Positions 21,373 through 44,181 of a stretch of 64,000 bases of DNA are shown piece after piece. The translations under genes and the position numbers were made by a program. Under the pieces are notes generated by a model. It searched no databases and had not been told where the DNA came from. It saw only the letters and a list, made by a program, of their open reading frames with translations. Numbering within the stretch: position 1 is the first letter of the stretch; every line of letters begins with the position of its first letter. Origin of the DNA: Escherichia phage T5_ev219; sequence record NC_134263.1; one strand, given 5' to 3'.

Positions 21373-21786
21373 TTAAACTAGTTCGACATGACCGCCATCA
21401 TAGGTACCACGTTTTATTTCATCGTGATAATCTCCCGAAGCATTCCAATCAGCACCAAAGCGAAGTTTAATGCCTAGTTCTTTACCAGCTTGTTCAAAAG
21501 CCTTTTTAACTGCCCAAAATGCTTCTAAATCATTCCAATCAATTTTGCCATTAATGTATGGAGCAAAATCAAGGGCATCCCCAGTAATATGCTTGCTTTT
21601 ACTAGGATCTTTTAAAAATGAAGTACCATTAGCAATATTCTGGGCACTTTGTGCTACTGTACGAATACCCTGTACGATCGTGAAATCATATGGAGATAAT
21701 TCTAAAGCTCTACGAGCTACTTTTTGTAGCTCTGGCTTAACAGTAGCTAATTGTTTTTCGCTATTTTTACCAAATTTAAAACTCAT
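21373..21786 (-). CDS. lys: endolysin, L-alanyl-D-glutamate peptidase
   Basis: 137 aa; His/Asp metal ligands (H..D...GGH); directly downstream of holin-like gene. Confidence 0.8.
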   Translation of the reverse strand: MSFKFGKNSEKQLATVKPELQKVARRALELSPYDFTIVQGIRTVAQSAQNIANGTSFLKDPSKSKHITGDALDFAPYINGKIDWNDLEAFWAVKKAFEQAGKELGIKLRFGADWNASGDYHDEIKRGTYDGGHVELV

Positions 21787-22439
21787 ATTGATCTACCTAA
21801 AGATCTCTGTTGTGGGGAACAGAGCTTTGTTAAATACTCGTTAAATTTCTCAGAATCGGCTGCATCTACAGGATTATCTTTCCAAGCAATACCAATATAT
21901 CCAGCATAGATATTGTTTAGATTGAAATACGGACAAGTGTATATGTAATTAAAAGTAACGTTCTTAAACGCAGGTATATTTAACCCCATGTATTTATTTA
22001 CTTTTACACTTAAATCCGATGCGTAGTTAAAGCCTTCCAAGTGACGTCTATATAGCTCAGACGTTTTATTTACCGCTTTATCGGCCAAGTCAGCCCTATC
22101 TAATTGCGCATTGCTTTCCCATGCAATAATGTTAGAATAATCATTAATGGCATCGGGTTTATACTTGACGACAAAAACAGCATCCGCACCCGTTTGAGAA
22201 AAGAGTACCATGCTCTTCTCTCTAGCTACATTAGGAAAGTTATCTATCCTTTGAGTTTGAACATCCTGTAGAACCGCAGACGTGGAGAAAGTCTTTAAGA
22301 ATGACATCACCTCGCTAGTATTACTAACAAATAAGAAAATAATGACAGCAACTAAGATAGTTAGCAGACGTTTAAGAAGCGATGCTGGATCTTTCGCTTC
22401 TTGGAGCAGTACCGTTAATAATTGTAAGAACTTTTCCAA
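21783..22439 (-). CDS. hol: holin
   Basis: 218 aa, single N-terminal TM segment, overlaps endolysin start. Confidence 0.65.
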   Translation of the reverse strand: MEKFLQLLTVLLQEAKDPASLLKRLLTILVAVIIFLFVSNTSEVMSFLKTFSTSAVLQDVQTQRIDNFPNVAREKSMVLFSQTGADAVFVVKYKPDAINDYSNIIAWESNAQLDRADLADKAVNKTSELYRRHLEGFNYASDLSVKVNKYMGLNIPAFKNVTFNYIYTCPYFNLNNIYAGYIGIAWKDNPVDAADSEKFNEYLTKLCSPQQRSLGRSI

Positions 22440-30117: not shown

Positions 30118-30361
30118 TAGAGAGTACAGTACTGGTAGTTGGCAATACTACAGATGAAGCAACAGTGTTTAAATGCTTTCTCCAGTCTAGGTTAAATTGT
30201 TTTCGAAACTCTTCATAAGGTTCTTCTGGATAAAAGCTAAAACCTCCTTTCTCGTCATTCAGGATAACAGAGCCGTCAGTTTGTTCGTATGCTCGGTATG
30301 TTTCTCCAATAACAATAATTCGTTTATCGGTACTTTTATTACGAAACTCAAAAACGTGCAT
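30110..30361 (-). CDS. hypothetical protein
   Basis: 83-aa ORF. Confidence 0.45.
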   Translation of the reverse strand: MHVFEFRNKSTDKRIIVIGETYRAYEQTDGSVILNDEKGGFSFYPEEPYEEFRKQFNLDWRKHLNTVASSVVLPTTSTVLSNG

Positions 30362-30377
30362 AATGTTTCCTTAAAGT

Positions 30378-30453
30378 TGGAGCGGCTAGAGGGAATCGAA
30401 CCCTACTCAGCGAGGCTTGGAAGGCCTGCGACACAACCCGTGTGCTTAACCGC
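30378..30453 (-). tRNA. tRNA-Gly (TCC), tentative
   Basis: Manual cloverleaf; good acceptor and T arm; anticodon assignment depends on stem register. Confidence 0.55.
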
Positions 30454-30461
30454 TTATTATT

Positions 30462-30537
30462 TGGCTGGAGAAGGAGGAATCGAACCTACCATTAACGGAG
30501 TCAAAGGCCGTTGTGCTAACCGTTACACTACTCTCCA
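30462..30537 (-). tRNA. tRNA-Gln (TTG)
   Basis: Manual cloverleaf; U1-A72; loop CTTTGAC. Confidence 0.65.
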
Positions 30538-30543
30538 ATAATT

Positions 30544-30619
30544 TGGCTGGGATGCCACGGATCGAACGTGGAACCTTCGGAGTCAGAGGCCGACGATCTG
30601 CCAATTGATCTACATCCCA
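30544..30619 (-). tRNA. tRNA-Gln (CTG)
   Basis: Manual cloverleaf with fully paired arms; loop CTCTGAC. Confidence 0.7.
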
Positions 30620-30632
30620 ATAATTCTTTACT

Positions 30633-30827
30633 CTATGGAAATAGAGTAACTGGCTCAGGTTCTTCAAGGCGCTTACCTTCATGATCTACTCGAATGACTC
30701 CGCATCCTTCGCAAACCACAACTGCACCATAACCTTCTTTGACTTCGGCTTCTGTAATCAGACCAGATAAGTCACCAGTATCTCTGCCCCACATATCAAT
30801 GGAGCATTGTTTGCAGAAATCAGCCAT
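30633..30827 (-). CDS. small Cys-rich protein (zinc-ribbon-like)
   Basis: 64 aa; CKQC...CEGC. Confidence 0.5.
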   Translation of the reverse strand: MADFCKQCSIDMWGRDTGDLSGLITEAEVKEGYGAVVVCEGCGVIRVDHEGKRLEEPEPVTLFP

Positions 30828-30852
30828 AGTTTATTTCCTATTTAAGTTAATT

Positions 30853-30929
30853 TGGGGTGGCTAGTGGAATTCGAATCCACATAGGCCTGATTCACAATCA
30901 GGATCATTAACCAATTATGATATAGCCAC
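30853..30929 (-). tRNA. tRNA-His (GTG)
   Basis: Manual cloverleaf, perfect stems; loop TTGTGAA. Confidence 0.75.
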
Positions 30930-31297
30930 AATTGAAAACTCGCAGGGTTAGCGAAACCATCCTCAATTAGCATGTTCTAGAATACTAATCAAGTTATCTC
31001 CTATTGCACGCAGCTCAAGACGAGTACGAATTTTCAATTGTGGCGGCTCTCAGAAACTCTTCTATTCTAGCCTCAGAAGCTTACCCCCGAACGCATGTCG
31101 GGAAAGTCTTTCCAAGAGCATCAAATAGCACCGTTACACTTTGAGCCATTGATGTATCAAGGAATAGAAGGGCTTGAACCTTCATGAGTTAGACCATTTA
31201 ACTCAACCGCTTTTAAGGTATATTTCTAGGAGTGGATGTTCCTAGTAAACCTATTCGGCAGTCCCGTCTACCAATTCCGGCATATTCCAAGAATTTT

Positions 31298-31471
31298 TTA
31301 TAAACCGGCAGAAGCCTCATTTAAAGCATCAACAATAGCTTCACGCTGGGTCATTCCATACCCGGTGGAGTCTAGGTGAGGCAAATAGGCTGCCCATCCA
31401 TTATCTGTTTCATGAAGGTATGCTTTAAATTTTTTACCATCCTTCATTGTTACAGTAACTGTTTTGCTCAT
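31298..31471 (-). CDS. small protein, HicB-antitoxin-like fold candidate
   Basis: 57-aa ORF with AGGAAT RBS; resemblance weak. Confidence 0.35.
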   Translation of the reverse strand: MSKTVTVTMKDGKKFKAYLHETDNGWAAYLPHLDSTGYGMTQREAIVDALNEASAGL

Positions 31472-31491
31472 AAGGATTCCTTATAGTTAAT

Positions 31492-31581
31492 TGGAGGAAG
31501 GTAATGGAGTCGAACCATCACCGTATCACTACAGCGGGCTAGTTTTCAAGACTAGTTGCGTACCACTACGCCCTACCTTCC
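31492..31581 (-). tRNA. tRNA-Ser (TGA), class II
   Basis: 90 nt; perfect acceptor; loop CTTGAAA; long variable arm. Confidence 0.75.
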
Positions 31582-31588
31582 ATTTGTT

Positions 31589-31679
31589 TGGCGGAAGAGG
31601 AGAGATTTGAACTCTCAAGCCGTTTTACCAGTCAGCCACTTTCCAAGCGGTTTTCGTCGCCAATTCGATTTGCTCTTCC
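31589..31679 (-). tRNA. class II tRNA, probably Ser (GGA)
   Basis: 91 nt; perfect acceptor and T arm; anticodon stem partly paired. Confidence 0.55.
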
Positions 31680-31791
31680 AATAATAAGATGATGCCTCTA
31701 TCATACCAGGCAGTTACGCCTCGCTGGGATTCGAACCCATTAAAACAGCTCAACCGAGATAGTAGGTTTAATTTACTCTGACCATCAAATT

Positions 31792-31868
31792 TGGTGCGTG
31801 ACAAGGGATTCGAACCCTCAAAACCCGACTTCTAAGGACGGTATGTATGCCAATTCCATCAATCACGC
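31792..31868 (-). tRNA. tRNA with TAG anticodon (Leu codon CUA) but short variable loop
   Basis: 77 nt; good acceptor, D, anticodon and T arms; 5-nt variable region. Confidence 0.55.
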
Positions 31869-31873
31869 GTATT

Positions 31874-31952
31874 TGGTGGAGGATAACGAATTCGAATCGT
31901 TCTGATGTCCTCGGTGCAAGCGAGGTGTCCACTCCCAGCAGACCCATCCCCC
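31874..31952 (-). tRNA. tRNA-Ala (TGC)
   Basis: Perfect anticodon stem; loop CTTGCAC. Confidence 0.7.
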
Positions 31953-32238
31953 AAATTCTTTAGTTTACTAAGGCTATTAGCTCGGCGTAACTACAGCACC
32001 TTCGCTTCGAGCGGAAGGAACTGCGTCATCTCGCAAACCCAATACACTATTCAGTTGCCGCTGAATCTAGTGGACTAATCTAGAACTTCTCCCAAATCGT
32101 AGGAATCGTGCTTTTTGGCAGCCAGTCCTAGGTCGAGCTAATACCTTAGTGAACTATGATGAGGATTTCTCCCCATCAATTTATATAAATATTATAACAA
32201 GAAATTAAGCATTAAGCAACTGCGTTTTTTCTTGAAAT

Positions 32239-32317
32239 TGGTAGATCGCCTGGGACTCGAACCCAGAACCTTCCGATTAAAAGTCGGATGCTACTAAACC
32301 TATTGAGCTAGCGACCT
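32239..32317 (-). tRNA. tRNA-Lys (TTT)
   Basis: Perfect anticodon stem; loop CTTTTAA. Confidence 0.7.
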
Positions 32318-32318
32318 A

Positions 32319-32486
32319 TTAGTAACCATTATATACTTCTTTAATAGAGTGGACTTTTAAATAGGGATGATTAGTATTAAACTCTACCATTACTTCATCC
32401 CAATTTTTACCATAATGGGCAAGTAAGGATTTTGATGTATTCTTACCTAAACGTTTGTCACTTACTACTAATCGAAATACTTTCAT
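32319..32486 (-). CDS. small hypothetical protein
   Basis: 55-aa ORF with GAGGAT RBS. Confidence 0.4.
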   Translation of the reverse strand: MKVFRLVVSDKRLGKNTSKSLLAHYGKNWDEVMVEFNTNHPYLKVHSIKEVYNGY

Positions 32487-32506
32487 TTCGAAATCCTCTA
32501 TTAAAA

Positions 32507-32584
32507 TGGAAGCGGGTGCAGGAATCGAACCTACCTCTTTCTAGCTTATGAGACTAGTGATCTCTACCAGAGATCTAACCCGCA
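32507..32584 (-). tRNA. tRNA with CAT anticodon, unpaired 1:72 (initiator-like)
   Basis: Loop CTCATAA; D stem GATC/GATC; U1-U72 mismatch. Confidence 0.6.
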
Positions 32585-32590
32585 ATTGTT

Positions 32591-32669
32591 TGGTCTCCGT
32601 GGGAGGATTTGAACCCCCGACCCTATCGCCCCAAACGAAACGCTCTGACCAAACTGAGCTACACGGAGA
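32591..32669 (-). tRNA. tRNA-Pro (TGG)
   Basis: Perfect acceptor; loop TTTGGGG. Confidence 0.65.
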
Positions 32670-32672
32670 ATA

Positions 32673-32831
32673 TTATTTCTTCAACCACAACAAAGATAAG
32701 CCCAGCATACTAAAGCCGCTAACTAATCCGATACCTTTTTCTTCTATAGTAAAAGTATCTAGATTAAATGCTGTTATAGCTATTGGCATACACCATAATG
32801 CCATAAAAACTTGAGCTATCTTGTGTTTCAT
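32673..32831 (-). CDS. small hydrophobic protein
   Basis: 52-aa ORF with GGAAGG RBS behind a family promoter. Confidence 0.4.
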   Translation of the reverse strand: MKHKIAQVFMALWCMPIAITAFNLDTFTIEEKGIGLVSGFSMLGLSLLWLKK

Positions 32832-33042
32832 TTTGCTTTCCTTCCCTTCACTTTATAAGATATATTATACAGAGAATTAAGCAGAATAGCAAATGAATTT
32901 TTAATAAATTTACTTATTGTGTAGGCCACCTGGAGGCTATGAACCCCACGGCTGACAAAGAAGTTTGCGAGACCTCTCTTAAATGCCAGAATAGACCCGC
33001 CGATCTATCGGAACCTACATAATAAGTAAACTTTATAGTGTC

Positions 33043-33162
33043 ATTCTAGACAGGATTCGAACCTGTTATCACTTGTGCGGACTTACGAGAACCATTCTTT
33101 CACTCGAATCGAACGAGCTTCTGCCCTCGCCAAGTTGGTTTCCCCATCAACCACGCTAGAAT
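33043..33162 (-). other. 120-nt tRNA-like structured element (two T-arm-like hairpins inside a 7-bp closing stem)
   Basis: CTAGAAT/ATTCTAG pair at the ends; internal GGTTCGAATCC-like and TTCGATT hairpins. Confidence 0.3.
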
Positions 33163-33284
33163 GTTTGATTGTTTTCAGTGCAAGAGTCCGAGTCTTGGAC
33201 ACGACCGCTTCGCAAGTACATAGGCAGCTTATCATGAGTCAGCACTTCCGAATTGCTAGCTCCGTGTTCTGCACTGAAATTTTA

Positions 33285-33641
33285 TTAGTTTAACCGTAAA
33301 GTATTATCTACTTCACCATTAATTGTTCGGCATTCCTCTGGGATTGCCGGGGTGGCCTTGTATTCCCACCACTCAGCACCATCATATTCCCCACGTTCTA
33401 GCCAAGTTCCATCGGCAAACCATACATTACCATAAAGTAATTGTCCACCGTATCCAGAATCATATTCAAAGTCTAGGTTATTAAGAAAATCCTCAATATC
33501 TTCTTCTGCATAACCTAAAGGTAATACCCAAACTTTTTTATCCCCATAATACCCGAATTCTATTTTAATACACTTAACTTCAGAATTAGTATTTTTTAAG
33601 GCAAGTAACAGCTCTTCTTTAGCATTACGCATATTACGCAT
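33285..33641 (-). CDS. hypothetical protein
   Basis: Track ORF 33285..33728 trimmed to Met30 because the N-terminal extension runs into tRNA-Asp. Confidence 0.5.
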   Translation of the reverse strand: MRNMRNAKEELLLALKNTNSEVKCIKIEFGYYGDKKVWVLPLGYAEEDIEDFLNNLDFEYDSGYGGQLLYGNVWFADGTWLERGEYDGAEWWEYKATPAIPEECRTINGEVDNTLRLN

Positions 33642-33666
33642 AATATATTCCCATACTGGATTAATT

Positions 33667-33743
33667 TGGCGCGACCGATGGGATTTGAACCCACATTCTC
33701 TCCCGTGACAGGGGAGTACCATTACCAAGCCAGCCCCGGTCGC
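33667..33743 (-). tRNA. tRNA-Asp (GTC)
   Basis: Perfect acceptor; loop CTGTCAC. Confidence 0.75.
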
Positions 33744-33752
33744 ATAATTTAT

Positions 33753-33938
33753 TTACTCAGCTTTGAGTTTTTCAATAGCTGCATTAAGTTCTTTAAGAAA
33801 CTCTTTTCGTACATTAAGACGATTGAGACTTACTAGTATATCATGTTTAAGTTCTTCGATGTATTTCTTTTCAACTTCAATATTGTTGATAGTGCTATCA
33901 CGATGAACTTCTAACTGTGCAATTACATTCTTGGACAT
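33753..33938 (-). CDS. hypothetical coiled-coil protein
   Basis: 61-aa ORF. Confidence 0.4.
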   Translation of the reverse strand: MSKNVIAQLEVHRDSTINNIEVEKKYIEELKHDILVSLNRLNVRKEFLKELNAAIEKLKAE

Positions 33939-34040
33939 GCTTGTTTCCTCAGTTATTAATGAAAATGGTATCTGTGGCTGAATTCGATGTCAGCAATGAT
34001 AGCTGGTTGGCTACCGGTTTACTTAACTCTACACAGAATT

Positions 34041-34118
34041 TGGCGGTTCCTGCTGGATTCGAACCAGCAACCCTCAACTTAACAAGATGCCGCTCTAACC
34101 AATTAGAGCTAAGGAACC
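34041..34118 (-). tRNA. tRNA-Asn (GTT), tentative
   Basis: Perfect acceptor, D and T arms; weak anticodon stem; loop TTGTTAA. Confidence 0.55.
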
Positions 34119-34613
34119 ATATAAGTCAGAACTAGAGTTAATACGTTCTAGATATTTACTAAGATCCCTAGAATTTATACTAAACCACTCATGTTCTTTT
34201 AAATCTTTGAAATACTGGTGAATTAGTTTTTCACCTTTTCGTTTGTCAAACCAAAAAGACCAATGCTCTAACTTATAATCCCTATAAGGGGAATAAGTCT
34301 GATATTGAGCTAATCTCTCTTTTGGATTTTGACTCATACCTATTTTATACTGATTTTTCCATGCAGGATTACTAATACAGTATACAAAACCTTCAGAAAT
34401 AGGAAGTTTATTTTCCTGCTTAAACTTTATAAAGGAAAGTGCAGCAAGTTTTCTCGAATACATAGTATTTGTATTCTTTTTGGTATTACCATTGGTTCCT
34501 GAAAGATTTATATATTCTTCCATAAATCTCTGGATTAGTTCTGCGGTTATATAGAAGGGCTCATTAGTAACAACGCCTTTCTTTACCAAACTATCAAAAA
34601 CTTTTGTATGCAC
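34095..34613 (-). CDS. GIY-YIG-like domain protein
   Basis: 172 aa; GFVYCISNP...YKIGMSQNP..R pattern; last 7 codons and stop overlap the 5' end of tRNA-Asn. Confidence 0.55.
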   Translation of the reverse strand: MHTKVFDSLVKKGVVTNEPFYITAELIQRFMEEYINLSGTNGNTKKNTNTMYSRKLAALSFIKFKQENKLPISEGFVYCISNPAWKNQYKIGMSQNPKERLAQYQTYSPYRDYKLEHWSFWFDKRKGEKLIHQYFKDLKEHEWFSINSRDLSKYLERINSSSDLYGSLALIG

Positions 34614-34633
34614 TACTTCTTTCCTTTAGTAAT

Positions 34634-34709
34634 TTGGACGACCGCATGAGATTTGAACTCACATAAAAAGGATTTGCAATCCTTCGCCTAAGCCATTCAG
34701 CCAACGGTC
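34634..34709 (-). tRNA. tRNA-Cys (GCA)
   Basis: Loop TGCAAAT. Confidence 0.65.
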
Positions 34710-34897
34710 GATTTATCTTGTTTTTCGAGATCTTCAAATTCTAAATCATTGAAGTTCCCTAGAGTACGGGAGTAGAACCCGTCTCCTGCGTCATAGCCTG
34801 ATTTGCCACAATCACACATTTTAAATTCACGAAGATGTGTGAAAATATGCTCAGAACCACAACACTTAAATCTAACTAATCGTTTCATTAGTTTCAT
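34697..34897 (-). CDS. small zinc-ribbon-like protein
   Basis: 66 aa; CCGSEH...CDCG; 3' end overlaps tRNA-Cys 5' end. Confidence 0.45.
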   Translation of the reverse strand: MKLMKRLVRFKCCGSEHIFTHLREFKMCDCGKSGYDAGDGFYSRTLGNFNDLEFEDLEKQDKSTVG

Positions 34898-34946
34898 TAG
34901 CTTCTCCAGTTCAATTTATATAATTATTATATAGAACTTTTGGAAA

Positions 34947-35231
34947 CTAAGCAACTACATTTTTTAAGAATTTGATGTCTTTCTTCTTCTTATATTTCCA
35001 CGTTAATGGATTCTGTCGATTGTGAACGCTTGAGATCTTCGTCTCGTCAAAGTTCTTCAATATCATGTAATCACAAGATAATTGTTCTAATGGAATGTGA
35101 TCACCGTCAAAAGCATATACATAAGGCTGTTGACTAGCACGATAATGATAGACTTTGTTAATTCTACGTTTCAGCGACTTATCAGCGCAGTAAATAAAGA
35201 AGTTTTCAGGATGCATCAGCATCTCCTTCAA
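34947..35231 (-). CDS. hypothetical protein
   Basis: 94-aa ORF. Confidence 0.45.
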   Translation of the reverse strand: MKEMLMHPENFFIYCADKSLKRRINKVYHYRASQQPYVYAFDGDHIPLEQLSCDYMILKNFDETKISSVHNRQNPLTWKYKKKKDIKFLKNVVA

Positions 35232-35233
35232 TT

Positions 35234-35308
35234 TGGTGCACCCTGTTCGTATCGAACGAACCTCTCAAGCTCTTCAGGCAAGCGCTAATCCATCTCAGCT
35301 AAAGGTGC
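35234..35308 (-). tRNA. tRNA-Phe (GAA), tentative
   Basis: Good acceptor and T arm; loop CTGAAGA; partial anticodon stem. Confidence 0.55.
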
Positions 35309-35315
35309 AAATTTT

Positions 35316-35391
35316 GGCAAACCTACTAGGACTCGAACCTAGACCGTACGGTTTTGGAGACCGACATGCTGTCCAGTAACACTCTAGGAAT
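35316..35391 (-). tRNA. tRNA-like, Trp (CCA) anticodon arm but unpaired acceptor stem (possible pseudogene)
   Basis: Good D, anticodon and T arms and 3' CCA; 5' and 3' acceptor strands not complementary. Confidence 0.35.
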
Positions 35392-35399
35392 GCAGAAAT

Positions 35400-35476
35400 T
35401 GGCGTCCTGTGCGGGGATCGAACCCGCAAATCCTACCTTGAAAGGGTAGTGACTTTACCAGTTTGTCTAACAGGAC
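35400..35476 (-). tRNA. tRNA-Glu (TTC)
   Basis: Perfect acceptor and anticodon stems; loop CTTTCAA. Confidence 0.7.
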
Positions 35477-35483
35477 TTAAATT

Positions 35484-35574
35484 TGGTGTTGGATGATGGA
35501 GTCGAACCACCCGAGACCCTTCCGAGTCGGCAGATTTACAGTCTGCTTCGCTACCTCTACGATACTAATCCAAC
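35484..35574 (-). tRNA. tRNA-Tyr (GTA), class II
   Basis: 91 nt; perfect acceptor; anticodon stem GCAGA/TCTGC; loop CTGTAAA. Confidence 0.7.
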
Positions 35575-35702
35575 ATATTTAAAAGTATTCAAATACTAGT
35601 TTAAACACTTTTAAATATGTTTCCGAATTAGATAACTATTATACCAAGTTTTAAGGCACTGAGCAAGTCAAATTTTAAAGAACTTGCTCAGTGCTGTATT
35701 AG

Positions 35703-35978
35703 TTAGTCGAACTTAGGAGTGACAGTTAAGGAGAACGGAAGTTCGAAAACTTCTTCGCCCTCATTACTAACGGTAACTACACGACCTTTAAGTTCAGACA
35801 TTAAAATATCAATATCAGCTTTTGCATCTGGAGCCATGCCAGCTTCAATACATTTAGCTTTAACTTCCGGTAAAAGCTCTACGTTATAGAGATAGAGCCA
35901 CTCAATCTCACCTTCCCAGTCTTCCCAGGATTTGCAGATTGCACTTTCAATACCAGTTGCTACAACACGATTTTGCAT
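35703..35978 (-). CDS. hypothetical protein
   Basis: 91-aa ORF behind a family promoter. Confidence 0.5.
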   Translation of the reverse strand: MQNRVVATGIESAICKSWEDWEGEIEWLYLYNVELLPEVKAKCIEAGMAPDAKADIDILMSELKGRVVTVSNEGEEVFELPFSLTVTPKFD

Positions 35979-36068
35979 TAATTAACTCCTTCATCAATTT
36001 ATATAACTATTATACCAGAAATTTAAAGTAAAAGGCAAGTACATTTTTAAAAATTCTGTTTGGAGGAG

Positions 36069-36275
36069 CTAAACTCCAGATTTTTCGGCCAAGTCTAGAC
36101 TAATAAGAGTTATAGCCATAATTGCTGCACCGTGTTCTTTTTCTCCGGTGTTTTTAGCAGAGTCTATAATATCCTTAATCTGTTCGTAATAACTTTTTAC
36201 TTCTTGTTCAATGCCTGCCTCGGCTATCATGCCTTTAGCCATGAATCGTTGCATGGTAATTTCAGGATTAGCCAT
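36069..36275 (-). CDS. hypothetical protein
   Basis: 68-aa ORF. Confidence 0.45.
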   Translation of the reverse strand: MANPEITMQRFMAKGMIAEAGIEQEVKSYYEQIKDIIDSAKNTGEKEHGAAIMAITLISLDLAEKSGV

Positions 36276-36450
36276 GTTGTTTCTCCAGTTTCATTTTTAA
36301 TAGTTTACAGATGAAATCAACGTCTTCATCTGTGCCTAAGTCTCTATCCTCAAGGGTCGCCTTGAAGTTTTTCGTCAATTCCATGAGGATGATTTCCCTA
36401 GAACGACGTGTTGGCGGAGGTGGATGTCTATACATCTTATTTCCTTAATT

Positions 36451-36527
36451 TGGTAGGGGTGGTGGGATTCGAACCCACAAAACCTGAATTTTAAGTCCAG
36501 TACCTATGCCAATTCGATTACACCCCC
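36451..36527 (-). tRNA. tRNA with TAA anticodon (Leu codon UUA) but short variable loop
   Basis: 77 nt; good acceptor, anticodon and T arms; D-loop AATTGGCATA shared with 31792..31868. Confidence 0.55.
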
Positions 36528-36628
36528 GTGTAATCAGTTTATTAGTTGATACATATTATAGCCTAAAGAAAACCCTACTACTAATCCTACTAACCAACCA
36601 ATATAATAATCTTTTAATTTCACGGGTG

Positions 36629-36814
36629 TCAACCTCGTTCAATATCTAGAGAAATACCACAGGTAGGATTAATGCCTGTGCCTTTGCACGTCGGACAAAC
36701 CCAGATATTACAGAATGTATCCCCTGCTTCTGCATCAGAACTTTCTCCAACTCCTAGACAGTCAGGACAGGCACATTCTTCTAGCTCTTGCTTGAGTTCT
36801 TGAAACTTAGACAT
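36629..36814 (-). CDS. small zinc-ribbon protein
   Basis: 61 aa; CACPDC...CPTCKG. Confidence 0.5.
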   Translation of the reverse strand: MSKFQELKQELEECACPDCLGVGESSDAEAGDTFCNIWVCPTCKGTGINPTCGISLDIERG

Positions 36815-36823
36815 ATAGTTTCC

Positions 36824-37012
36824 TTATTCAATTACTTTTGAGGCTTCAAGGGAGTCGATATAGTGTACGTTTTCTACCATAATCATATAATCTGCCACTT
36901 TATCCATAGCCTGAGCTTCAGAGGTAGCCCTGGCTAACCTATATCCTTTTTTATATTCATCCGGGTATTCCCTATCTGGAATAAACACAACATAAACTAG
37001 GTATAGTTCCAC
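36824..37012 (-). CDS. hypothetical protein
   Basis: 62-aa ORF. Confidence 0.4.
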   Translation of the reverse strand: MELYLVYVVFIPDREYPDEYKKGYRLARATSEAQAMDKVADYMIMVENVHYIDSLEASKVIE

Positions 37013-37033
37013 TTGTAACCCCTCTAATTAAAC

Positions 37034-37111
37034 TGGTGGCTCCCCGAGGATTCGAACCTACGTACCTTCCGGTTATGAGCCGGGTGCTCATACCATATGA
37101 GCTTGAGAACC
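37034..37111 (-). tRNA. tRNA with CAT anticodon, E. coli fMet-like anticodon arm
   Basis: Anticodon arm CCGG-CTCATAA-CCGG; D stem GCTC/GAGC; weak T stem. Confidence 0.5.
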
Positions 37112-37117
37112 AGAATT

Positions 37118-37206
37118 TGGCGGAAGAAGTGGGAATCGAACCCACAAGGCTATATTTCAAACCGACAGATTAGCAATCTGCTGCAATACCGTTATGCTAT
37201 TCTTCC
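37118..37206 (-). tRNA. tRNA-Ser (GCT), class II
   Basis: 89 nt; perfect acceptor; loop TTGCTAA. Confidence 0.65.
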
Positions 37207-37310
37207 GAATTTATAAGATATATTATATTAGAAATTTAGCTTCATAGCAAGAAAATTTTTCAAGTTTTCGGTAGACATCTCATCCACATCTACAGGAGAA
37301 ACAAATCCAT

Positions 37311-37745
37311 TTAATTGTCTAGCAAATTTTCACCAGCAGGATCATTATCCCCAACAGCTACCAATTTAAAAGGTAATAATTTCAGTTGCTTTAATAACGC
37401 TTTTCCTGGAGAAGAACCCAACATTGCTAGGGCTGGATAACCAGCGTTATGTAACGCAACTGCCTTAAATACAGATTCAGCGATCAATACTACTTTTTCA
37501 TCTCCATTGAGAGTTTCTAGTCCCCATACACACTGGGTAGTAGAATAAGTAAAATATTTAGCTTCAAAGGGACACTTACCATGACCTTTTGGAGCAGAAG
37601 GATTATAAGTTTGATAGCCCCTCAACATCCCAGAGAAGTCATACAACGGGACTGTTAGCCATCCTTCCGGACTTAACCAGCAATGATATTTTTCTGTATC
37701 AAATCCTCTAGATAAGAGGTGCTGTGTTAGCTCATCAACATTCAT
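37311..37745 (-). CDS. Toprim-domain protein (primase-like C-terminal fragment)
   Basis: Track ORF trimmed to Met18 because Met1 lies inside the promoter; LIAESV...ALHNAG...AMLGSS...VGDNDPAG resembles DnaG Toprim motifs. Confidence 0.45.
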   Translation of the reverse strand: MNVDELTQHLLSRGFDTEKYHCWLSPEGWLTVPLYDFSGMLRGYQTYNPSAPKGHGKCPFEAKYFTYSTTQCVWGLETLNGDEKVVLIAESVFKAVALHNAGYPALAMLGSSPGKALLKQLKLLPFKLVAVGDNDPAGENLLDN

Positions 37746-37920
37746 ATCTGGTTCCTCTCTCAAATTTATAGATATATTATACAGAGAATTTAGCATTCAA
37801 GCAATCAAATTTTTTAACTTTTTAGAGGAAAATCATAGGGCACTTAAGGGCAGCAGATAAGTGGTGAGGACCAAAATTTGTGACCCCACTAAAAATCCGG
37901 GGGCAATTTTTAAAGACCCT

Positions 37921-37949
37921 TTGACATTTTCGCCGGGGTAGTGTAAAGT
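37921..37949 (+). promoter_or_regulatory. sigma70-like promoter for the plus-strand cassette
   Basis: TTGACA, 17-bp spacer, TAAAGT. Confidence 0.45.
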
Positions 37950-38011
37950 ATATGTTATGGATGAGTGATCAAAGAGACACACATTTTCTATATACTAGGA
38001 GGTGTCAAAAA

Positions 38012-38992
38012 ATGACAGAAGAAGTAGCTAAGAGTCCTGAGACCGTCGCTAGCGTAGCAGCAGAACTGCATCGTCACGAGGAATCAGATAAGAAAAAGTG
38101 GGAGAAGGTCAGAGCCTACGAAGAAGAACATCGTGAACACGATGATAAAGATGAAGAAGATGACGATGATGTACGTTGTCATAAATATGGAAAATATAAA
38201 ATGCAAGAACCAGTAAACGTATTTACTAACGGCTTCCCTGGCATGGGTGCATTCCCAGCTAACGCAAGTGCTTTCGGTGGAGAAGGTATGGGTCTATTCG
38301 GAGCTATCCTAATCGGTGCTCTATTAACCGGCGGATTTGGTGGTTTTGGTGGTTTTGGTCGTGGTGCTGGCGTTGCCGCTGAAGGAACCGCTGTGGACGC
38401 GATCCTTTCTAACCAGGATACTGCAAGTATTCTAGCTGCAATCAATACTACTCGTACAGAAGCTAACCAGGGCACTGGGGCTGTTCTAAGTGCAGTAAAC
38501 GGTGTGGGAGCTGCTCAAGCTGCTAGCACTCAGCAAGTTCTGACTACTATCTACGGTACAGGTGCTAATCTGTCAAACCAGATCTGTGCTGAAACTCGTA
38601 ACGTTATTCAGGGTCAGTTCGATCTTTCTCGTCAGATGGATCAATCTTTCGCTGCTAACCAGATAGCACGTGCTCAAGATAAGTTTGACTCTGCTCAGAT
38701 TGCTTTCCAGCAGTCTATTCAGACCAACAACCAGTTTGCCGCTGTTCAGGCTCAGATGTGCGCTAACCAGAACGCTATCGAACGTCAGCTTGCTGAATGT
38801 TGCTGTGAGCTTCAGACTGCGATCGCTGGTGTAACTACTGCACGTATCCAGGACGAACTGAATGAATGCCGTCTGCGCGAAGCAATCGCTGCAGGTAGCG
38901 GTGCAAATGGTCAGGTAATCAACCAAATCGCTGTAAGTCTTGGTGCTATCACTCAGACTCTGGCTGGTCTGCAGGCTAAACTGCCGGCTTAA
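38012..38992 (+). CDS. Gly/Ala/Gln/Asn-rich low-complexity protein with central hydrophobic Gly-rich segment
   Basis: Track ORF trimmed to MTEEVAK with AGGAGG RBS; acidic N-terminus, GMGLFGAILIGALLTGGFGGFGGFG segment, Q/A/N-rich C-terminus with ECCCEL. Confidence 0.6.
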   Translation: MTEEVAKSPETVASVAAELHRHEESDKKKWEKVRAYEEEHREHDDKDEEDDDDVRCHKYGKYKMQEPVNVFTNGFPGMGAFPANASAFGGEGMGLFGAILIGALLTGGFGGFGGFGRGAGVAAEGTAVDAILSNQDTASILAAINTTRTEANQGTGAVLSAVNGVGAAQAASTQQVLTTIYGTGANLSNQICAETRNVIQGQFDLSRQMDQSFAANQIARAQDKFDSAQIAFQQSIQTNNQFAAVQAQMCANQNAIERQLAECCCELQTAIAGVTTARIQDELNECRLREAIAAGSGANGQVINQIAVSLGAITQTLAGLQAKLPA

Positions 38993-39754: not shown

Positions 39755-40702
39755 TTACTTGTTACGCATATCCATAATCATCTGGCCATCGTAACCAGTG
39801 CCAACCACAGTCTGCGGTACGCCACCTTGATATTTCTGAGCACGAATCATCTCAACTTCCAGTTGTTTCCAACGAATCATCTCAGGAGTAATGGTACGTT
39901 GCAGTGCGGCGTTAGCTTCAGCTTCTTTCTTAGCTGCGTACAGTTTAGCATCTGCGTCACGTTCATTAGCGATAGCTTGGTTGTTGCGAGCTTCACGATC
40001 TGCTTCTGCTTGTTTAACTTTTTGCTGTGCTTCCTGTTCAACACGAGCTAATTCAGCTTTAGCAGCATTAACCTGTTCTTCACGAACTTTGGTATTCTGT
40101 ACCTGTTCCATGATTACCGGTGGCAAAGTAATATCCTGAAGGAATACCTGCTTAACTGTGTAACCATATGGGCGTGCATACTCTTCAACTTCCTGTTGAA
40201 TTGCAGTTTGCAATTGAGCCTGAATTTTAGCATCAAACAAATCTTGTGCTTTAGGTACAGACTTACCAAACTCACGAATAGTAGACAGTAATTTTTCAGT
40301 TACATACTTGTCTAGTGCCTGATCCTGAGTACCTGCATTAATACGGTTAATCGGTGCCTTAGAACCATCAAACTGCAACATAACAGTCAGGTCAACAGTG
40401 GATTTAAACTTATCCTGACTAGGAACCTGAAGTTTATCTAATTTTACAGCAATATCTTTTGTACTGAAAGTATCGAAAGATGCAAACGGGTTTACAATAT
40501 GGAAACCAGGTAATACTGGATTAGGGTCTACTTTACCCAGGAATGTTTGAGTTTTAACCGTACCATCAGAAACAATAGTATATGAATTAAAAGCTAGGAT
40601 TAAACCTGCTAAACCAACTACAGCACCAATCCCCCAACGTTTAATAGTACGAATTACTTTCTGCTCAGAAGTTAGTTCTTTCATATTTTTAGTATTAAAC
40701 AT
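39755..40702 (-). CDS. SPFH/band-7 (prohibitin/HflC-like) membrane protein
   Basis: 315 aa; N-terminal TM, SPFH-like core, long Ala/Glu/Gln-rich coiled-coil tail; AAGGAA RBS. Confidence 0.65.
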   Translation of the reverse strand: MFNTKNMKELTSEQKVIRTIKRWGIGAVVGLAGLILAFNSYTIVSDGTVKTQTFLGKVDPNPVLPGFHIVNPFASFDTFSTKDIAVKLDKLQVPSQDKFKSTVDLTVMLQFDGSKAPINRINAGTQDQALDKYVTEKLLSTIREFGKSVPKAQDLFDAKIQAQLQTAIQQEVEEYARPYGYTVKQVFLQDITLPPVIMEQVQNTKVREEQVNAAKAELARVEQEAQQKVKQAEADREARNNQAIANERDADAKLYAAKKEAEANAALQRTITPEMIRWKQLEVEMIRAQKYQGGVPQTVVGTGYDGQMIMDMRNK

Positions 40703-40811: not shown

Positions 40812-41313
40812 TTTAAGTATTTTTAAGAACTCTCGTAAAAACTCTTAAAAATACAGACGATACCGGGAGAGTCATAAGTCTCACTCATTAAGTATTTCAA
40901 GACAAAATACAGTAACGTCTATTATTTTCCAGTTTAAGTCAGGGTGACTTAGTGGTTATGTCCTGCGGTATATTGAGGACTCGGTTAGGCTTGGGGTCAT
41001 GACTTCCCGCCTTTTGCTGCTACTCAACAGGAGTTATCGCGAATTACCTGTGCTATTGTGCACCATTAGTGACATCTCTCATGTCAGCATTTCCCACTTT
41101 GTGGATAGCTTGAAAAACTACTCCGATATGGAGAAAGAACTTCACTATCCTAGAATACCTTCTAAAGTTCTTCTTTAGCCTGGACATAGTTAAATCGTAA
41201 TAAAACTATTCAGCAGACTGGTTGGTTAGTCTGGAACCAACTACCGCGTGGTTTAGGCAGTGCGCAACTAACCTCGGAAGCTTTTACGTTAAAAGCATCA
41301 GTTATCCAGTTCT

Positions 41314-41385
41314 TACCGACCGTAGGATTCGAACCTACATCTTCCACCAGTTACGGCTTGGTAATACCAATTATACTAGGACGGC
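41314..41385 (-). tRNA. tRNA-like element (no encoded CCA; possible pseudogene)
   Basis: T arm GTAGG-TTCGAAT-CCTAC; acceptor with one mismatch; non-canonical anticodon loop. Confidence 0.3.
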
Positions 41386-41645
41386 AGTGTTACTACATAA
41401 GTGATTTCCACACCCCACTATTTATAAATTAGAGAAGAGTTTAGGGGAGAGGTTTCAGACGCCCCATTTTACACGTTCTAGCCACTAACCGGGATTGCCG
41501 CCCCCTGTGTACTAGTTTTCCAACTAACCCACCGACTCTATTCAATGCGCTCCGGTTGGGATTCTGCACTCAGCGTAATCGGCTCGCTGTTCTCTAATTT
41601 ATGAATATATTATACAGAATTTATAGGCATTTAGCAAATAAATTT

Positions 41646-42089
41646 TTAATTAAATTCGCCAGCAATCTGAGCAGCAGTACCACCATCATAACGCCCAGGA
41701 AATTCTTCCTTAATCGCTTTCATCAGCATACCTTTTGTAATTCCAGGGTTTAGCTTAACTAATTCTGCAAAGTATTTACGAATCTCAGTATCAGATAACT
41801 GAGGAGGCAGATACTCCTGCAACCACTTATTTAGAATGTATTCATACTGAGCGGACTGCAAGCTATAACTATCAAGATCTTGACCATGAAGTTTAGCTTT
41901 CATCTGGTTAATGCTTTTTAGTTGAGCTTTGAGATAAGACACAAATTGTTCAGAAGTGATGAAATCTTTATCAATACGCTGAAGATCCCCGATTATGGTC
42001 TGATAGCTTTTAGCGACTTCTTTATCAGAACCATTAAACTTAGAATCCTGCAAAGCTCTACGCAAAACATCTAAAATATTCTCTTCCAT
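41646..42089 (-). CDS. GatB/YqeY-domain protein
   Basis: 147 aa; C-terminal GITKGMLMKAIKEEFPGRYDGGTAAQIAGEF resembles YqeY C-terminus. Confidence 0.5.
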   Translation of the reverse strand: MEENILDVLRRALQDSKFNGSDKEVAKSYQTIIGDLQRIDKDFITSEQFVSYLKAQLKSINQMKAKLHGQDLDSYSLQSAQYEYILNKWLQEYLPPQLSDTEIRKYFAELVKLNPGITKGMLMKAIKEEFPGRYDGGTAAQIAGEFN

Positions 42090-42260
42090 TATTTCATTCC
42101 TAACGCTTGGTTAAAAGATTGTTCTGTCATAACTGCTGAGACTTTGGCGAAATCAAACTTTTTAGGGTTCGTAGTGATCTCAGCAACGTTGGAAGTTTTA
42201 ACAGTTTTCGTAGTACGAATACCGCGAGTATTAACACCAATAATTACAACTGATTTCATA
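42090..42260 (-). CDS. small hypothetical protein
   Basis: 56-aa ORF; stop overlaps downstream start (TAATG). Confidence 0.4.
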
Positions 42261-42327
42261 TTTCGCTTCCTCTCATTAATTTATGAAAGTATTATACAGA
42301 AGTTTAAGTATTTAAGCAAATAAATTT

Positions 42328-42795
42328 TTAAGTTTTAGTGACAACAGGCTTATAAAATGTATGTCCCTTAATCTTAGTTGTTTTCTTAAACTTCTTTGTC
42401 CAGTATGGTTTATCTTTACCACTATGGAAGTATAAAGCTCCATGTGTAGGATCTTGTGGTAAATCAACGTAGTATATCACTCTAGCTAAATTCTTGGCGG
42501 TTTGCCAAGCCTCATCAGTTTTATCAACTTTTGGTCTCTTAGATACCCAAGAGAACTGGTTAGACTGATATACTACTTTACAGTAGGAATCTGGGAATTT
42601 ACCGGAGTTTACACGGTTTTTAGTAACATGTGCAATCGCCGTCATTCCCTTTATGCCCTCACCACGACTTTCGAAATAGATATTTTTAGCAATGCAATCT
42701 ATTTCTTTTGCATCGTGCGATGCCTGACTACTAAAGCTGAAGGTAAGGGCAGCTACTAAAAGCAAAGCTGCCTTCATTCTTTTTACTCCTGCCAA
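42328..42795 (-). CDS. secreted cell-wall hydrolase, SleB/CwlJ-like
   Basis: 155 aa; N-terminal signal peptide; CIAKNIYFESRGE...AIAHVTKNR...GALYFH pattern. Confidence 0.6.
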   Translation of the reverse strand: MAGVKRMKAALLLVAALTFSFSSQASHDAKEIDCIAKNIYFESRGEGIKGMTAIAHVTKNRVNSGKFPDSYCKVVYQSNQFSWVSKRPKVDKTDEAWQTAKNLARVIYYVDLPQDPTHGALYFHSGKDKPYWTKKFKKTTKIKGHTFYKPVVTKT

Positions 42796-43100
42796 TCATA
42801 TTCAACACGATTGGGATTTTCTTTATACCCTAAGTCAAGCAAATCATTACGCATAGTTTGCTTAGCTACGGGATTCGAGGTTACTAGTACCACTTTCTTT
42901 GGTCTCTGCCCAAATTCTAAGAGTAAACGAAGAATTTGATAACCTTCCATACCATCTACAGCCAAGTCATTATCCATATAAACAAAGTGGCCTGTGGTAT
43001 CAGTTTTATTCAGAAACTCGACAGCGGCTTCTGGGGTTCGAATGATAATGTCCATTCCGTGAAGATTACGCACATCATCAATCAAAATATGAAAAGTCAT
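42783..43100 (-). CDS. stand-alone CheY-like receiver-domain protein
   Basis: 105 aa; ILIDDV acidic pair, YMDNDLAVDGMEG phospho-acceptor region, VVLVTS, downstream Lys. Confidence 0.5.
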   Translation of the reverse strand: MTFHILIDDVRNLHGMDIIIRTPEAAVEFLNKTDTTGHFVYMDNDLAVDGMEGYQILRLLLEFGQRPKKVVLVTSNPVAKQTMRNDLLDLGYKENPNRVEYDWQE

Positions 43101-43542
43101 AATAGCCTCGTTTCATCAATTTAAAAATATATTATACAGATAACTTAATAAATTAGCAAATACATTTTTAAATTGTGAAACTAGTAAACCGATAAACAGC
43201 CTAGAGGCGCCACAGGCCATATCTTATGAGCCATGTACCTTTGATCTAGGGTTTGAATCATCAACGAATACTTTGCATCTTTTAGCTTTAGAAGTTTAGA
43301 AGTTTGAGTTCTTTAAACTTTTCAGCTTTCATACTTAAATGTTGATCTTTGAAGTTGTGTCGGTAATATCAACGACGCTTTGTTCTTACGTGTCAGCTTA
43401 AAAGGCTGGTGTAATAAACATAATCTCCAATAGATTATACTTTATAGTATGGTCAGCGGTCTTATTTAACCTCGTATTTCAACCGCTGCTGCGAGGTAAG
43501 ATGCTTGGGCTTTCGTCTACCGATTTACTAGCTTTTAAATTA

Positions 43543-44181
43543 TTACTCTACTTCAATGAAGGTAGAGGCGTTAGACTCGGACAGAACAAAGTCAACATTT
43601 GTTGCAAAGTCCTGATATTCCTCGTCATGCTGCTTAATCAGCTTCTCCAGTTCCAGCGGATCAATCAAGAATGGAGTATTCTTGAGTTCCAGCAGGTTGA
43701 GCTGCATTTTAACTTCATCTTCGGAAGTTTTCTTATCGCGGGTAGCCATGCTATCCTGCAAACGCTCATATTTAGCATCAAACTGTGCTTTCTGCGTATT
43801 AAACTTAACCGTAGCGGCATGGAACTGCTTACGCATGTTAGCCAGTAGCTGAGCTTTAAGCTCCATAGAACGCTTAGCTTCAATTGCTTCCGCAACAGTC
43901 ATCTTACGAGAGCCAATCTCAACGATTGTTTCCGCATTGCTCTTAATCAGAGCAGCTTTGATACAATCACGCTGGGACATCATATCTAGGAGAGATTGGA
44001 AATCTGCCTTAATACGAGCAGATAGATCGTCTACTTCGATTGCAGCGCCAACTACAACCTTATTTTTATCCTTACCTTCACCAACAGCGATCAGAAGCTG
44101 TTGTTCAGTAGCTTTACGGATTTTAGCTTCCAGAGATTTGATAGTTGCCAGAGCGCGAGTTTTAGAAATACGAGTAGTCAT
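43543..44181 (-). CDS. hypothetical coiled-coil protein
   Basis: 212-aa ORF. Confidence 0.55.
   Translation of the reverse strand: MTTRISKTRALATIKSLEAKIRKATEQQLLIAVGEGKDKNKVVVGAAIEVDDLSARIKADFQSLLDMMSQRDCIKAALIKSNAETIVEIGSRKMTVAEAIEAKRSMELKAQLLANMRKQFHAATVKFNTQKAQFDAKYERLQDSMATRDKKTSEDEVKMQLNLLELKNTPFLIDPLELEKLIKQHDEEYQDFATNVDFVLSESNASTFIEVE

What the first reader, a model, noticed from the sequence alone, without database searches (positions are those of the whole stretch)
42328..42795. Second, secreted peptidoglycan hydrolase distinct from the endolysin
A signal-peptide-bearing SleB/CwlJ-like hydrolase is encoded far from the lysis cassette. A periplasmic hydrolase made from within could remodel the wall early or act at superinfection.
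Basis: partly seen in the sequence, partly recalled or inferred. Interest (0 to 1): 0.4.

Follow-up and report, generated by a model that had tools for sequence, protein, structure and literature searches.

The report
T5's second, secreted wall hydrolase
This is the already annotated phage T5 gene T5.083: a small, probably exported SleB-like cell-wall enzyme that sits 20 kb from the lysis genes, is strongly conserved, and has no experimentally known job.

Summary
The window is a T5-like phage (Tequintavirus). The ORF on the minus strand is the ortholog of T5.083. Its real start is most likely ATG 42777 (149 aa), not the TTG at 42795.

- **Export:** it has a typical Sec signal sequence ending SQA|S. 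Divergent homologs keep that signal.
- **Location:** the holin and M15 endolysin lie about 20 kb away, at 21373-22439.
- **Selection:** dN/dS is 0.10-0.21 among T5-like phages.

None of this is new. T5-like genome papers of 2012 and 2024 already note the SleB-domain hydrolase far from the holin. The same signal-bearing enzyme occurs as an extra hydrolase in Vequintavirinae, Pakpunavirus and Chaseviridae. In Chaseviridae it sits next to the holin, and the M15 peptidase lies elsewhere.

My best reading is an exported glycan-strand-cleaving accessory to the holin-dependent peptidase endolysin. Its physiological role is still untested.

The parts
42328..42777 (-). Coding sequence of the Hydrolase_2 (SleB/CwlJ-like) peptidoglycan hydrolase, 149 aa; ortholog of T5.083
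   Evidence: ORF. Pfam PF07486 E 2.2e-25. T5 record annotation. AF2 pLDDT 91 and SleB fold. dN/dS 0.10-0.21.
42721..42777 (-). Codons 1-19, predicted Sec signal peptide MKAALLLVAALTFSFSSQA, with predicted cleavage before Ser20
   Evidence: Hydropathy and the -3/-1 rule. A hydrophobic N-terminus with a small-x-Ala motif is kept in divergent homologs while the sequence itself drifts.
42670..42672 (-). Codon of Glu36, the predicted catalytic glutamate in the YFESRGE motif
   Evidence: Invariant in 34 homologs. Aligned to the ESRGE motif of SleB 4F55/4FET. The SleB groove residues E203, R222, Y278 and H301 are named in PMC13556211.
42786..42790 (-). Shine-Dalgarno AGGAG, 8 nt upstream of ATG 42777, inside the last codons of the upstream gene
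   Evidence: Sequence read.
42783..43100 (-). Upstream co-oriented gene (ortholog of T5.084, cREC_REC receiver-like domain). It stops 5 nt before the hydrolase start and is probably co-transcribed.
   Evidence: Pfam PF20274 E 1.4e-14. T5 annotation. The adjacency is not conserved outside Markadamsvirinae, and HNH genes interrupt it in S113 and Kenya-K36.
43131..43159 (-). Sigma-70 promoter-like site TTGCTA-17-TATAAT upstream of the cREC-hydrolase pair
   Evidence: Scan. Sequence. A promoter is annotated at the equivalent place in T5.
42291..42319 (-). Next promoter, TTGCTT-17-TATAAT, starting 9 nt after the hydrolase stop codon. Its sequence is identical to the T5 promoter annotated 'P-D/E 33', and it drives the downstream DUF7616 and YqeY-like genes.
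   Evidence: Sequence comparison with L001. T5 annotation. No terminator-like site in 41400..43600.
21373..22439 (-). Comparator: the canonical lysis cassette, with T-type holin at 21783..22439 and M15 L-alanyl-D-glutamate peptidase endolysin at 21373..21786
   Evidence: Pfam PF11031 E 8e-114 and PF13539. T5 lys and holin annotation.

Best explanation
The gene encodes a small single-domain peptidoglycan hydrolase of the Hydrolase_2 (SleB/CwlJ catalytic domain) family.

Proposed pathway:
1. It is transcribed with the upstream cREC-domain gene from a T5 early-type sigma-70 promoter.
2. It is translated from ATG 42777.
3. It is exported by Sec and cut by signal peptidase I after Ala19.
4. The product is a basic periplasmic enzyme of about 14.9 kDa, probably stabilised by a Cys28-Cys66 disulfide.
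5. With Glu36 as the acid catalyst, it cleaves the glycan strands of ordinary Gram-negative murein. By analogy with SleB this is most likely a lytic-transglycosylase reaction.

I propose that it is an accessory wall-degrading enzyme. It would complement the cytoplasmic, holin-dependent M15 peptidase endolysin, which cuts the peptide stems. Together they would dismantle the sacculus faster or more completely at lysis.

Shown here: gene, family, fold, catalytic residues, signal-like N-terminus, conservation and genomic placement. Inferred: export and cleavage, the disulfide, bond specificity, timing and role.
For: Family and fold:
- Pfam E 2.2e-25.

Active site:
- E36, R55 and H139 are invariant, and Y116 is aligned to SleB.
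- The E36-R55 spacing of 19 residues equals the E203-R222 spacing in B. subtilis SleB.

Export:
- The sequence has n, h and c regions and SQA|S.
- Of the 33 aligned homologs, 32 have a hydrophobic N-terminus, usually followed by a small-x-Ala motif.
- In S113 the signal region is replaced (pN 0.44) while the mature part is conserved (pN 0.05).
- Cys28 and Cys66 are conserved in the phage and proteobacterial clade but absent from Bacillus SleB.

Functional constraint:
- dN/dS is 0.10-0.21, and 0.07-0.10 for the mature part.
- 434 phage records carry the hydrolase at 80% identity or more. 407 carry the T5 endolysin at 90% or more.

Link to lysis:
- In Chaseviridae (ST32, Fougasse) the signal-bearing Hydrolase_2 gene lies directly downstream of the holin, while an M15 peptidase 39% identical to T5 Lys lies elsewhere.
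- The CB7 paper (PMC7344957) describes the CB7 homolog as having a signal peptide and as toxic in E. coli (data not shown). It also cites earlier work implicating the CR3 homolog in host lysis.
Against: - There are no experimental data for this protein or any T5-like ortholog: no activity, export, timing or deletion phenotype.
- An active exported muralytic enzyme made from an early promoter should threaten premature lysis. Some restraint is needed and I found none encoded nearby.
- SleB itself needs muramic-delta-lactam, which E. coli murein lacks. Activity on ordinary murein is therefore assumed.
- In T5-like phages, Vequintavirus, Pakpunavirus and the metagenomic phages, the gene sits among early or nucleotide-metabolism genes, not lysis genes. 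That fits a non-lysis role equally well.
- No signal-peptide predictor was run.
Confidence: 0.55

Rival explanations
1. Non-lytic periplasmic role. The exported hydrolase would remodel the sacculus during the early phase, or act in superinfection exclusion or against competing phages, rather than contributing to lysis.
For: The gene lies behind an early-type promoter, 20 kb from the holin. In Pakpunavirus PaoP5 and in metagenomic large-phage contigs the homolog lies among nucleotide-metabolism genes. In Vequintavirus BP9 it overlaps the start of rIIA.
Against: The T5 lysis cassette is also in the early region, so position does not discriminate. No mechanism links a murein hydrolase to exclusion. 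Chaseviridae place the homolog next to the holin.
Confidence: 0.2
2. Signal-anchor-release (SAR) type enzyme. The N-terminal segment would not be cleaved. It would tether the enzyme inactive to the inner membrane until the holin collapses the membrane potential.
For: The segment is rich in Ala, Ser and Thr. Residues 3-20 form an 18-residue uncharged stretch. The catalytic Glu36 lies only 17 residues beyond it. AlphaFold draws one continuous helix over residues 2-37. This reading would solve the premature-lysis problem.
Against: The hydrophobic core is only 13 residues, A3-F15. From my own knowledge, that is short for a membrane span. A small-x-Ala site at the same place is kept in most divergent homologs, as expected for signal peptidase I processing.
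Confidence: 0.15
3. Redundant stand-alone endolysin. The exported enzyme could lyse the cell on its own (Sec-dependent, holin-independent access), backing up the M15 peptidase.
For: The Chaseviridae arrangement places the homolog beside the holin. The CB7 homolog is reported as toxic in E. coli.
Against: T5-like phages keep a complete holin, endolysin and spanin set as well. Infected cells do not lyse early.
Confidence: 0.07
4. Inactive or decaying passenger gene, or a murein-binding protein without catalysis.
For: There is no functional data. The known viable T5 deletions were never tested for it.
Against: Purifying selection is strong. The catalytic residues are invariant. Conservation across T5-like records is near-universal.
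Confidence: 0.03

Closest known systems
Phage T5 gene T5.083 (YP_006911.1) and its orthologs in Tequintavirus and Epseptimavirus
   Same: Same gene: 450 nt, same neighbours and promoters, 4 amino-acid differences from T5. It is labelled cell wall hydrolase, SleB or endolysin in hundreds of records and noted in PMC3326045 and PMC11180984.
   Different: Nothing material. The window copy differs from T5 at pN 0.011.
Bacillus SleB / CwlJ spore cortex-lytic enzymes (PDB 4F55, 4FET)
   Different: - It lacks the N-terminal peptidoglycan-binding domain.
- It scores 50 bits against the 236.5 cutoff of the SleB equivalog model.
- It has a Cys pair that SleB lacks.
- Its host has no spore cortex or muramic-delta-lactam, so the substrate must differ.
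SleB-like signal-peptide hydrolases of Vequintavirinae (CB7_83, CR3_087, P7_95) and other large virulent phages of Gram-negative hosts (Pakpunavirus, Menderavirus)
   Same: Same domain at about 35-41% identity, same N-terminal signal, encoded apart from a classical lysis cassette, and co-occurring with another endolysin type.
   Different: Different phage lineages and neighbours: rIIA/rIIB in Vequintavirus, DNA ligase and dCMP deaminase in PaoP5. These homologs are slightly longer.
Chaseviridae endolysin (ST32 gp78; Erwinia phage Fougasse / Y2 type)
   Same: Signal-bearing Hydrolase_2 enzyme. The phage also carries a T5-Lys-like M15 peptidase.
   Different: There the Hydrolase_2 gene lies directly downstream of the holin and the M15 gene lies in the early region. 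That is the reverse of T5. Those annotations state 'no experimental evidence'.
Secreted and SAR endolysins (Oenococcus phage fOg44 Lys44; P1 Lyz, phage 21 R21). This comparison rests on my own knowledge.
   Same: Muralytic phage enzymes that reach the wall through Sec, without needing holin holes.
   Different: Those are the phage's sole endolysin and belong to other catalytic families. Whether T5.083 is restrained by membrane potential is unknown.

Membership tests
Pfam Hydrolase_2 (PF07486, SleB/CwlJ catalytic domain) | Profile match above the gathering score over the whole domain | tested here: met
   89.7 bits against 27, profile positions 1-100 of 100, E 2.2e-25.
Pfam Hydrolase_2 (PF07486, SleB/CwlJ catalytic domain) | SleB catalytic-domain fold | tested here: met
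Pfam Hydrolase_2 (PF07486, SleB/CwlJ catalytic domain) | Catalytic glutamate and groove residues (Glu, Arg, Tyr, His) | tested here: met
   E36, R55 and H139 are invariant in 34 homologs, and Y116 is aligned to SleB. The SleB residues are taken from PMC13556211.
Pfam Hydrolase_2 (PF07486, SleB/CwlJ catalytic domain) | Muralytic activity | not testable with these tools
   Needs a zymogram or muropeptide analysis.
SleB proper (NCBIfam TIGR02869, spore cortex-lytic enzyme equivalog) | Full-length match above the curated cutoff, including the N-terminal peptidoglycan-binding domain | tested here: not met
   50.3 bits against a cutoff of 236.5. Only profile positions 79-201 are matched.
SleB proper (NCBIfam TIGR02869, spore cortex-lytic enzyme equivalog) | Dependence on muramic-delta-lactam and on the YpeB partner | not testable with these tools
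   E. coli murein has no delta-lactam (established knowledge). I did not look for a YpeB-like gene.
Sec (signal peptidase I) secreted protein | Positive n-region, hydrophobic h-region of 7-15 residues, and small residues at -3 and -1 | tested here: met
   K2; A3-F15; S17-Q-A19|S20. The feature is conserved in homologs. I applied the rule by hand, not with a trained predictor.
Sec (signal peptidase I) secreted protein | Demonstrated export and cleavage | not testable with these tools
   Needs fusions or the N-terminus of the mature protein.
SAR endolysin | N-terminal weakly hydrophobic membrane span of about 20 residues without a cleavage site | tested here: inconclusive
   The composition is Ala/Ser/Thr-rich, but the core is only 13 residues and a conserved small-x-Ala site follows it.
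Canonical endolysin of a holin-endolysin cassette | Encoded adjacent to the holin and spanins | tested here: not met
   The holin and M15 endolysin are at 21373..22439 and the hydrolase is at 42328..42777. The neighbours are a cREC-domain gene and a DUF7616 gene.

The most novel reading that the evidence does not exclude
Large virulent phages of Gram-negative bacteria (Demerecviridae, Vequintavirinae, Pakpunavirus and others) may share a conserved class of Sec-exported SleB-like glycan-cleaving enzymes made before lysis. The job of this class would not be lysis itself. It might instead pre-condition or remodel the sacculus, or modify the envelope against competitors. It would be kept harmless by a control mechanism that has not yet been identified.
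Probability: 0.2. Interest if true: 0.55.

Novelty: already known. Interest (0 to 1): 0.22.

Why it matters
The gene matters little as a discovery. It has been annotated since the T5 genome was published and is repeatedly mentioned in genome papers.

The open point is functional. A model phage, and several unrelated phage groups, keep an exported glycan-cleaving enzyme under strong purifying selection in addition to a complete holin, endolysin and spanin set. Nobody has shown what it does, or how an exported wall hydrolase is kept from lysing the cell early.

A clean deletion and timing study in T5 would be cheap. It would also inform the use of these enzymes as antibacterials, because they reach the wall of Gram-negative cells from inside through Sec.

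Tried and rejected
Searches that found nothing:
- A literature search for 'T5.083' found nothing.
- The CRISPRi-ART preprint covers T5 genome-wide, but neither the text nor the one supplement held as text mentions this gene.
- The supplements of the phiR2-01 proteogenomics paper are not held, so I could not check virion or lysate detection.
- The BF23 paper does not mention the hydrolase.
- The SleB structure paper PMC3415495 is not held. I took the SleB groove residues from PMC13556211 instead.

Things I could not do:
- AF2 model coordinates are not exposed to scripts, so the Cys28-Cys66 distance could not be measured.

Ideas considered and rejected:
- **TTG 42795 as the start.** It overlaps the upstream gene by 13 nt, has no Shine-Dalgarno, and is not used in any annotation.
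- **Functional coupling to the upstream cREC gene.** The adjacency is absent in My1 and in Klebsiella T5-like phages. HNH homing endonucleases interrupt it in S113 and Kenya-K36.
- **A lipoprotein.** There is no lipobox.
- **Loss in known viable T5 deletions.** These remove 29191-32442 and 30661-38625, and T5.083 is at 42290-42739. Dispensability is therefore unknown.

No intrinsic terminator was found around the gene.

Full report
**What the window is.** A 4-kb stretch around the finding is 98% identical to Escherichia phages vB_EcoS_ESCO40 and OSYSP. It matches 448 T5-like phage records. Against the T5 reference NC_005859, the ORF is the ortholog of T5.083 (YP_006911.1, 42290-42739), which RefSeq labels 'endolysin'. 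The window therefore covers the left arm of a Tequintavirus genome: pre-early region, early region with the tRNA cluster, and the start of the replication genes.

**The observation.**
- The ORF list gives 42328..42795 on the minus strand, starting at a TTG.
- That TTG overlaps the upstream gene. The sixth codon after it is ATG at 42777.
- AGGAG lies at 42790..42786, 8 nt upstream of that ATG, inside the last codons of the upstream gene. That gene's TAA is at 42785..42783.
- The T5 record uses the same 450-nt reading frame.
- The product is 149 aa and 16.9 kDa. Residues 20-149 are 14.9 kDa with pI 9.7.

**Family.**
- Pfam Hydrolase_2 (PF07486) matches over the whole profile, with E 2.2e-25 and 89.7 bits against a cutoff of 27.
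- PHROGs places it in phrog_938, labelled 'endolysin'.
- The only significant solved-structure relatives by sequence are the SleB catalytic domains 4F55 and 4FET. The YFESRGE motif aligns to YGESRGE.
- An AlphaFold model built on 34 homologs has mean pLDDT 91.
- Foldseek gives SleB at probability 1.0 and TM 0.71-0.79.
- B. subtilis SleB's catalytic groove is E203, R222, Y278 and H301 (PMC13556211). Here E36, R55 and H139 are invariant in the homolog alignment, and Y116 aligns to the SleB tyrosine. The Glu-Arg spacing of 19 residues is identical.
- The protein is not SleB proper. It scores 50 bits against the 236.5-bit cutoff of the SleB equivalog model and lacks the N-terminal peptidoglycan-binding domain.
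- The family is very large. There are 14,485 clusters at 50% identity with E up to 1e-3, mostly small single-domain proteins with a short N-terminal extension.

**Signal sequence.**
- MK (positive n-region), A3-F15 (13-residue hydrophobic core) and SSQA|S (small residues at -3 and -1) form a textbook signal peptidase I substrate.
- Of the 33 aligned homologs, 32 have a hydrophobic N-terminus. Most have a small-x-Ala motif at the equivalent place, although the sequence itself is not conserved.
- In Salmonella phage S113 the signal region has been replaced (pN 0.44) while the mature part is nearly unchanged (pN 0.05).
- Cys28 and Cys66 are conserved throughout the phage and proteobacterial clade. 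They are Leu and Ser in Bacillus SleB. That fits a periplasmic disulfide, but I could not measure the distance.
- A SAR-type anchor is not excluded. The segment is rich in Ala, Ser and Thr, and the uncharged stretch is 18 residues long. The short core and the conserved cleavage motif make a cleaved signal peptide more likely.

**Placement and expression signals.**
- The holin (T4 T-type, PF11031, E 8e-114) and the M15 peptidase endolysin are at 21373..22439. In T5 the spanin-like genes T5.044 and T5.045 lie a few genes further on.
- The hydrolase is about 20 kb away on the same strand.
- It follows, at a 5-nt gap, a 105-aa gene with a cREC_REC receiver-like domain.
- A TTGCTA-17-TATAAT site at 43159..43131 precedes that gene. 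It coincides with a promoter annotated in T5.
- Nine bases after the hydrolase stop codon comes the next promoter, TTGCTT-17-TATAAT at 42319..42291. It is identical to T5's 'P-D/E 33'.
- No terminator-like site was found.
- Both the hydrolase and the lysis cassette lie in what T5-like papers call the early region (PMC3326045).

**Conservation.**
- Pairwise dN/dS among eight Demerecviridae orthologs is 0.10-0.21 wherever dS is not saturated. For the mature part it is 0.07-0.10.
- 434 phage records carry the protein at 80% identity or more. That compares with 407 records carrying the T5 endolysin at 90% or more. These are approximate counts from two separate searches. They suggest the gene is close to universal in Markadamsvirinae.
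- It is also present in Pectobacterium My1, Serratia Slocum and Klebsiella T5-like phages, in the same region but with different immediate neighbours. The cREC gene is therefore not an obligate partner.
- Known viable T5 deletions (29191-32442 and 30661-38625; PMC11464382) do not reach the gene. Its dispensability is unknown.

**Relatives elsewhere.**
- The tblastn search found 1,277 phage records, almost all from Gram-negative hosts.
- **Chaseviridae (ST32, Erwinia phage Fougasse).** A signal-bearing Hydrolase_2 protein lies directly downstream of a holin. ST32 additionally carries a 138-aa M15 peptidase, 39% identical to the window's endolysin, in its early region. This is the T5 pair with the positions swapped.
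- **Vequintavirinae.** Papers report a SleB-like hydrolase with a signal peptide plus an M15 peptidase. The CB7 homolog was toxic in E. coli (data not shown), and the CB7 paper cites earlier work implicating the CR3 homolog in host lysis (PMC7344957, PMC11370258, PMC9769974). In Vequintavirus BP9 the gene overlaps the start of rIIA.
- **Phapecoctavirus.** Hydrolase_2 is paired with a GH24 lysozyme (PMC10793346).
- **Pakpunavirus PaoP5 and three metagenomic large-phage contigs.** The gene lies among nucleotide-metabolism genes.
- **Cellular genomes.** Homologs at 30-43% identity occur in diverse Proteobacteria, again with hydrophobic N-termini.

**Interpretation.** Identity is secure. This is an intact, selected Hydrolase_2 enzyme with a signal-like N-terminus. 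Export, cleavage at Ala19, the disulfide and glycan-strand cleavage are inferences from sequence rules and from SleB.

For the role, I favour an accessory wall-degrading enzyme that complements the peptide-cutting, holin-dependent endolysin. The reasons are the recurrent pairing with a second hydrolase of different bond specificity, the holin adjacency in Chaseviridae, and the reported toxicity of a homolog.

The weak point is control. An active exported hydrolase made from an early promoter should be dangerous, and nothing in the locus explains how it is restrained.

**Novelty.** The gene and its SleB label are in the T5 annotation. The AKFV33 paper lists 'cell wall hydrolase SleB' beside the lysozyme and holin in the early region (2012). 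A 2024 paper explicitly points out that T5-like Salmonella phages have an endolysin near the holin (M15) and a second one 'far from holin' with the SleB domain, and says further study is needed. The finding is therefore a correct re-discovery of a known, functionally uncharacterised gene.

Noticed in passing
window 21373..21786 and 42328..42777; L002 2510..3423; L079 10607..11023: The same pair of enzymes recurs in unrelated phage groups with the positions swapped. The pair is a T5-Lys-like M15 peptidase of about 138 aa without a signal, plus a signal-bearing Hydrolase_2. In T5-like phages the M15 gene is next to the holin. In Chaseviridae ST32 the Hydrolase_2 gene is next to the holin and the M15 gene (39% identical, E 3e-28) is in the early region.
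   Followed up: partly
L008 2036..2941 (Salmonella phage Kenya-K36); L010 972..1950 (S113): HNH homing endonuclease genes are inserted between the cREC gene and the hydrolase gene. The Kenya-K36 hydrolase looks chimeric: its N-terminal two thirds are diverged while its last ~40 residues are identical to T5. S113 has a replaced signal peptide. Both suggest homing-associated recombination at this spot.
   Followed up: partly
window 42783..43100 (-): The upstream gene (T5.084 ortholog) has a cREC_REC 'cyclic-phosphate processing receiver' domain (PF20274, E 1.4e-14). It lies close to the tRNA cluster and a YqeY-like gene. Its function in T5 is unknown.
   Followed up: no
window 41313..41386 (-): ARAGORN calls a tRNA-Ser with anticodon ACT inside the stretch that T5 annotates as stable 'RNAX'. 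Some related records annotate 'tRNA-OTHER' here.
   Followed up: no
window 43543..44181 (-): The T5.085 ortholog is labelled 'tail fiber protein' through phrog_1491. However, it lies in the early region, has no Pfam hit, and has only a weak chance-level NCBIfam hit. The label looks doubtful.
   Followed up: no
L011 2402..4881 (Escherichia phage BP9, Vequintavirus): The CwlJ/SleB-like hydrolase gene overlaps the start of rIIA by 4 nt and is followed by rIIB. That links it positionally to genes associated with lysis control in T4-like phages.
   Followed up: no
phage collection hits H26, H49, H51, H52: Records named 'Listeria phage LM 4-11-1' and 'Campylobacter phage A142 / D# / A147' carry T5-like or rV5-like hydrolase genes that are typical of enterobacterial phages. 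The host labels are probably wrong or reflect contamination.
   Followed up: no
window 39755..40702 (-): A 315-aa SPFH/Band-7 protein (PF01145), annotated 'lipoprotein' in T5 (T5.080), is another envelope-directed early-region product near the hydrolase.
   Followed up: no
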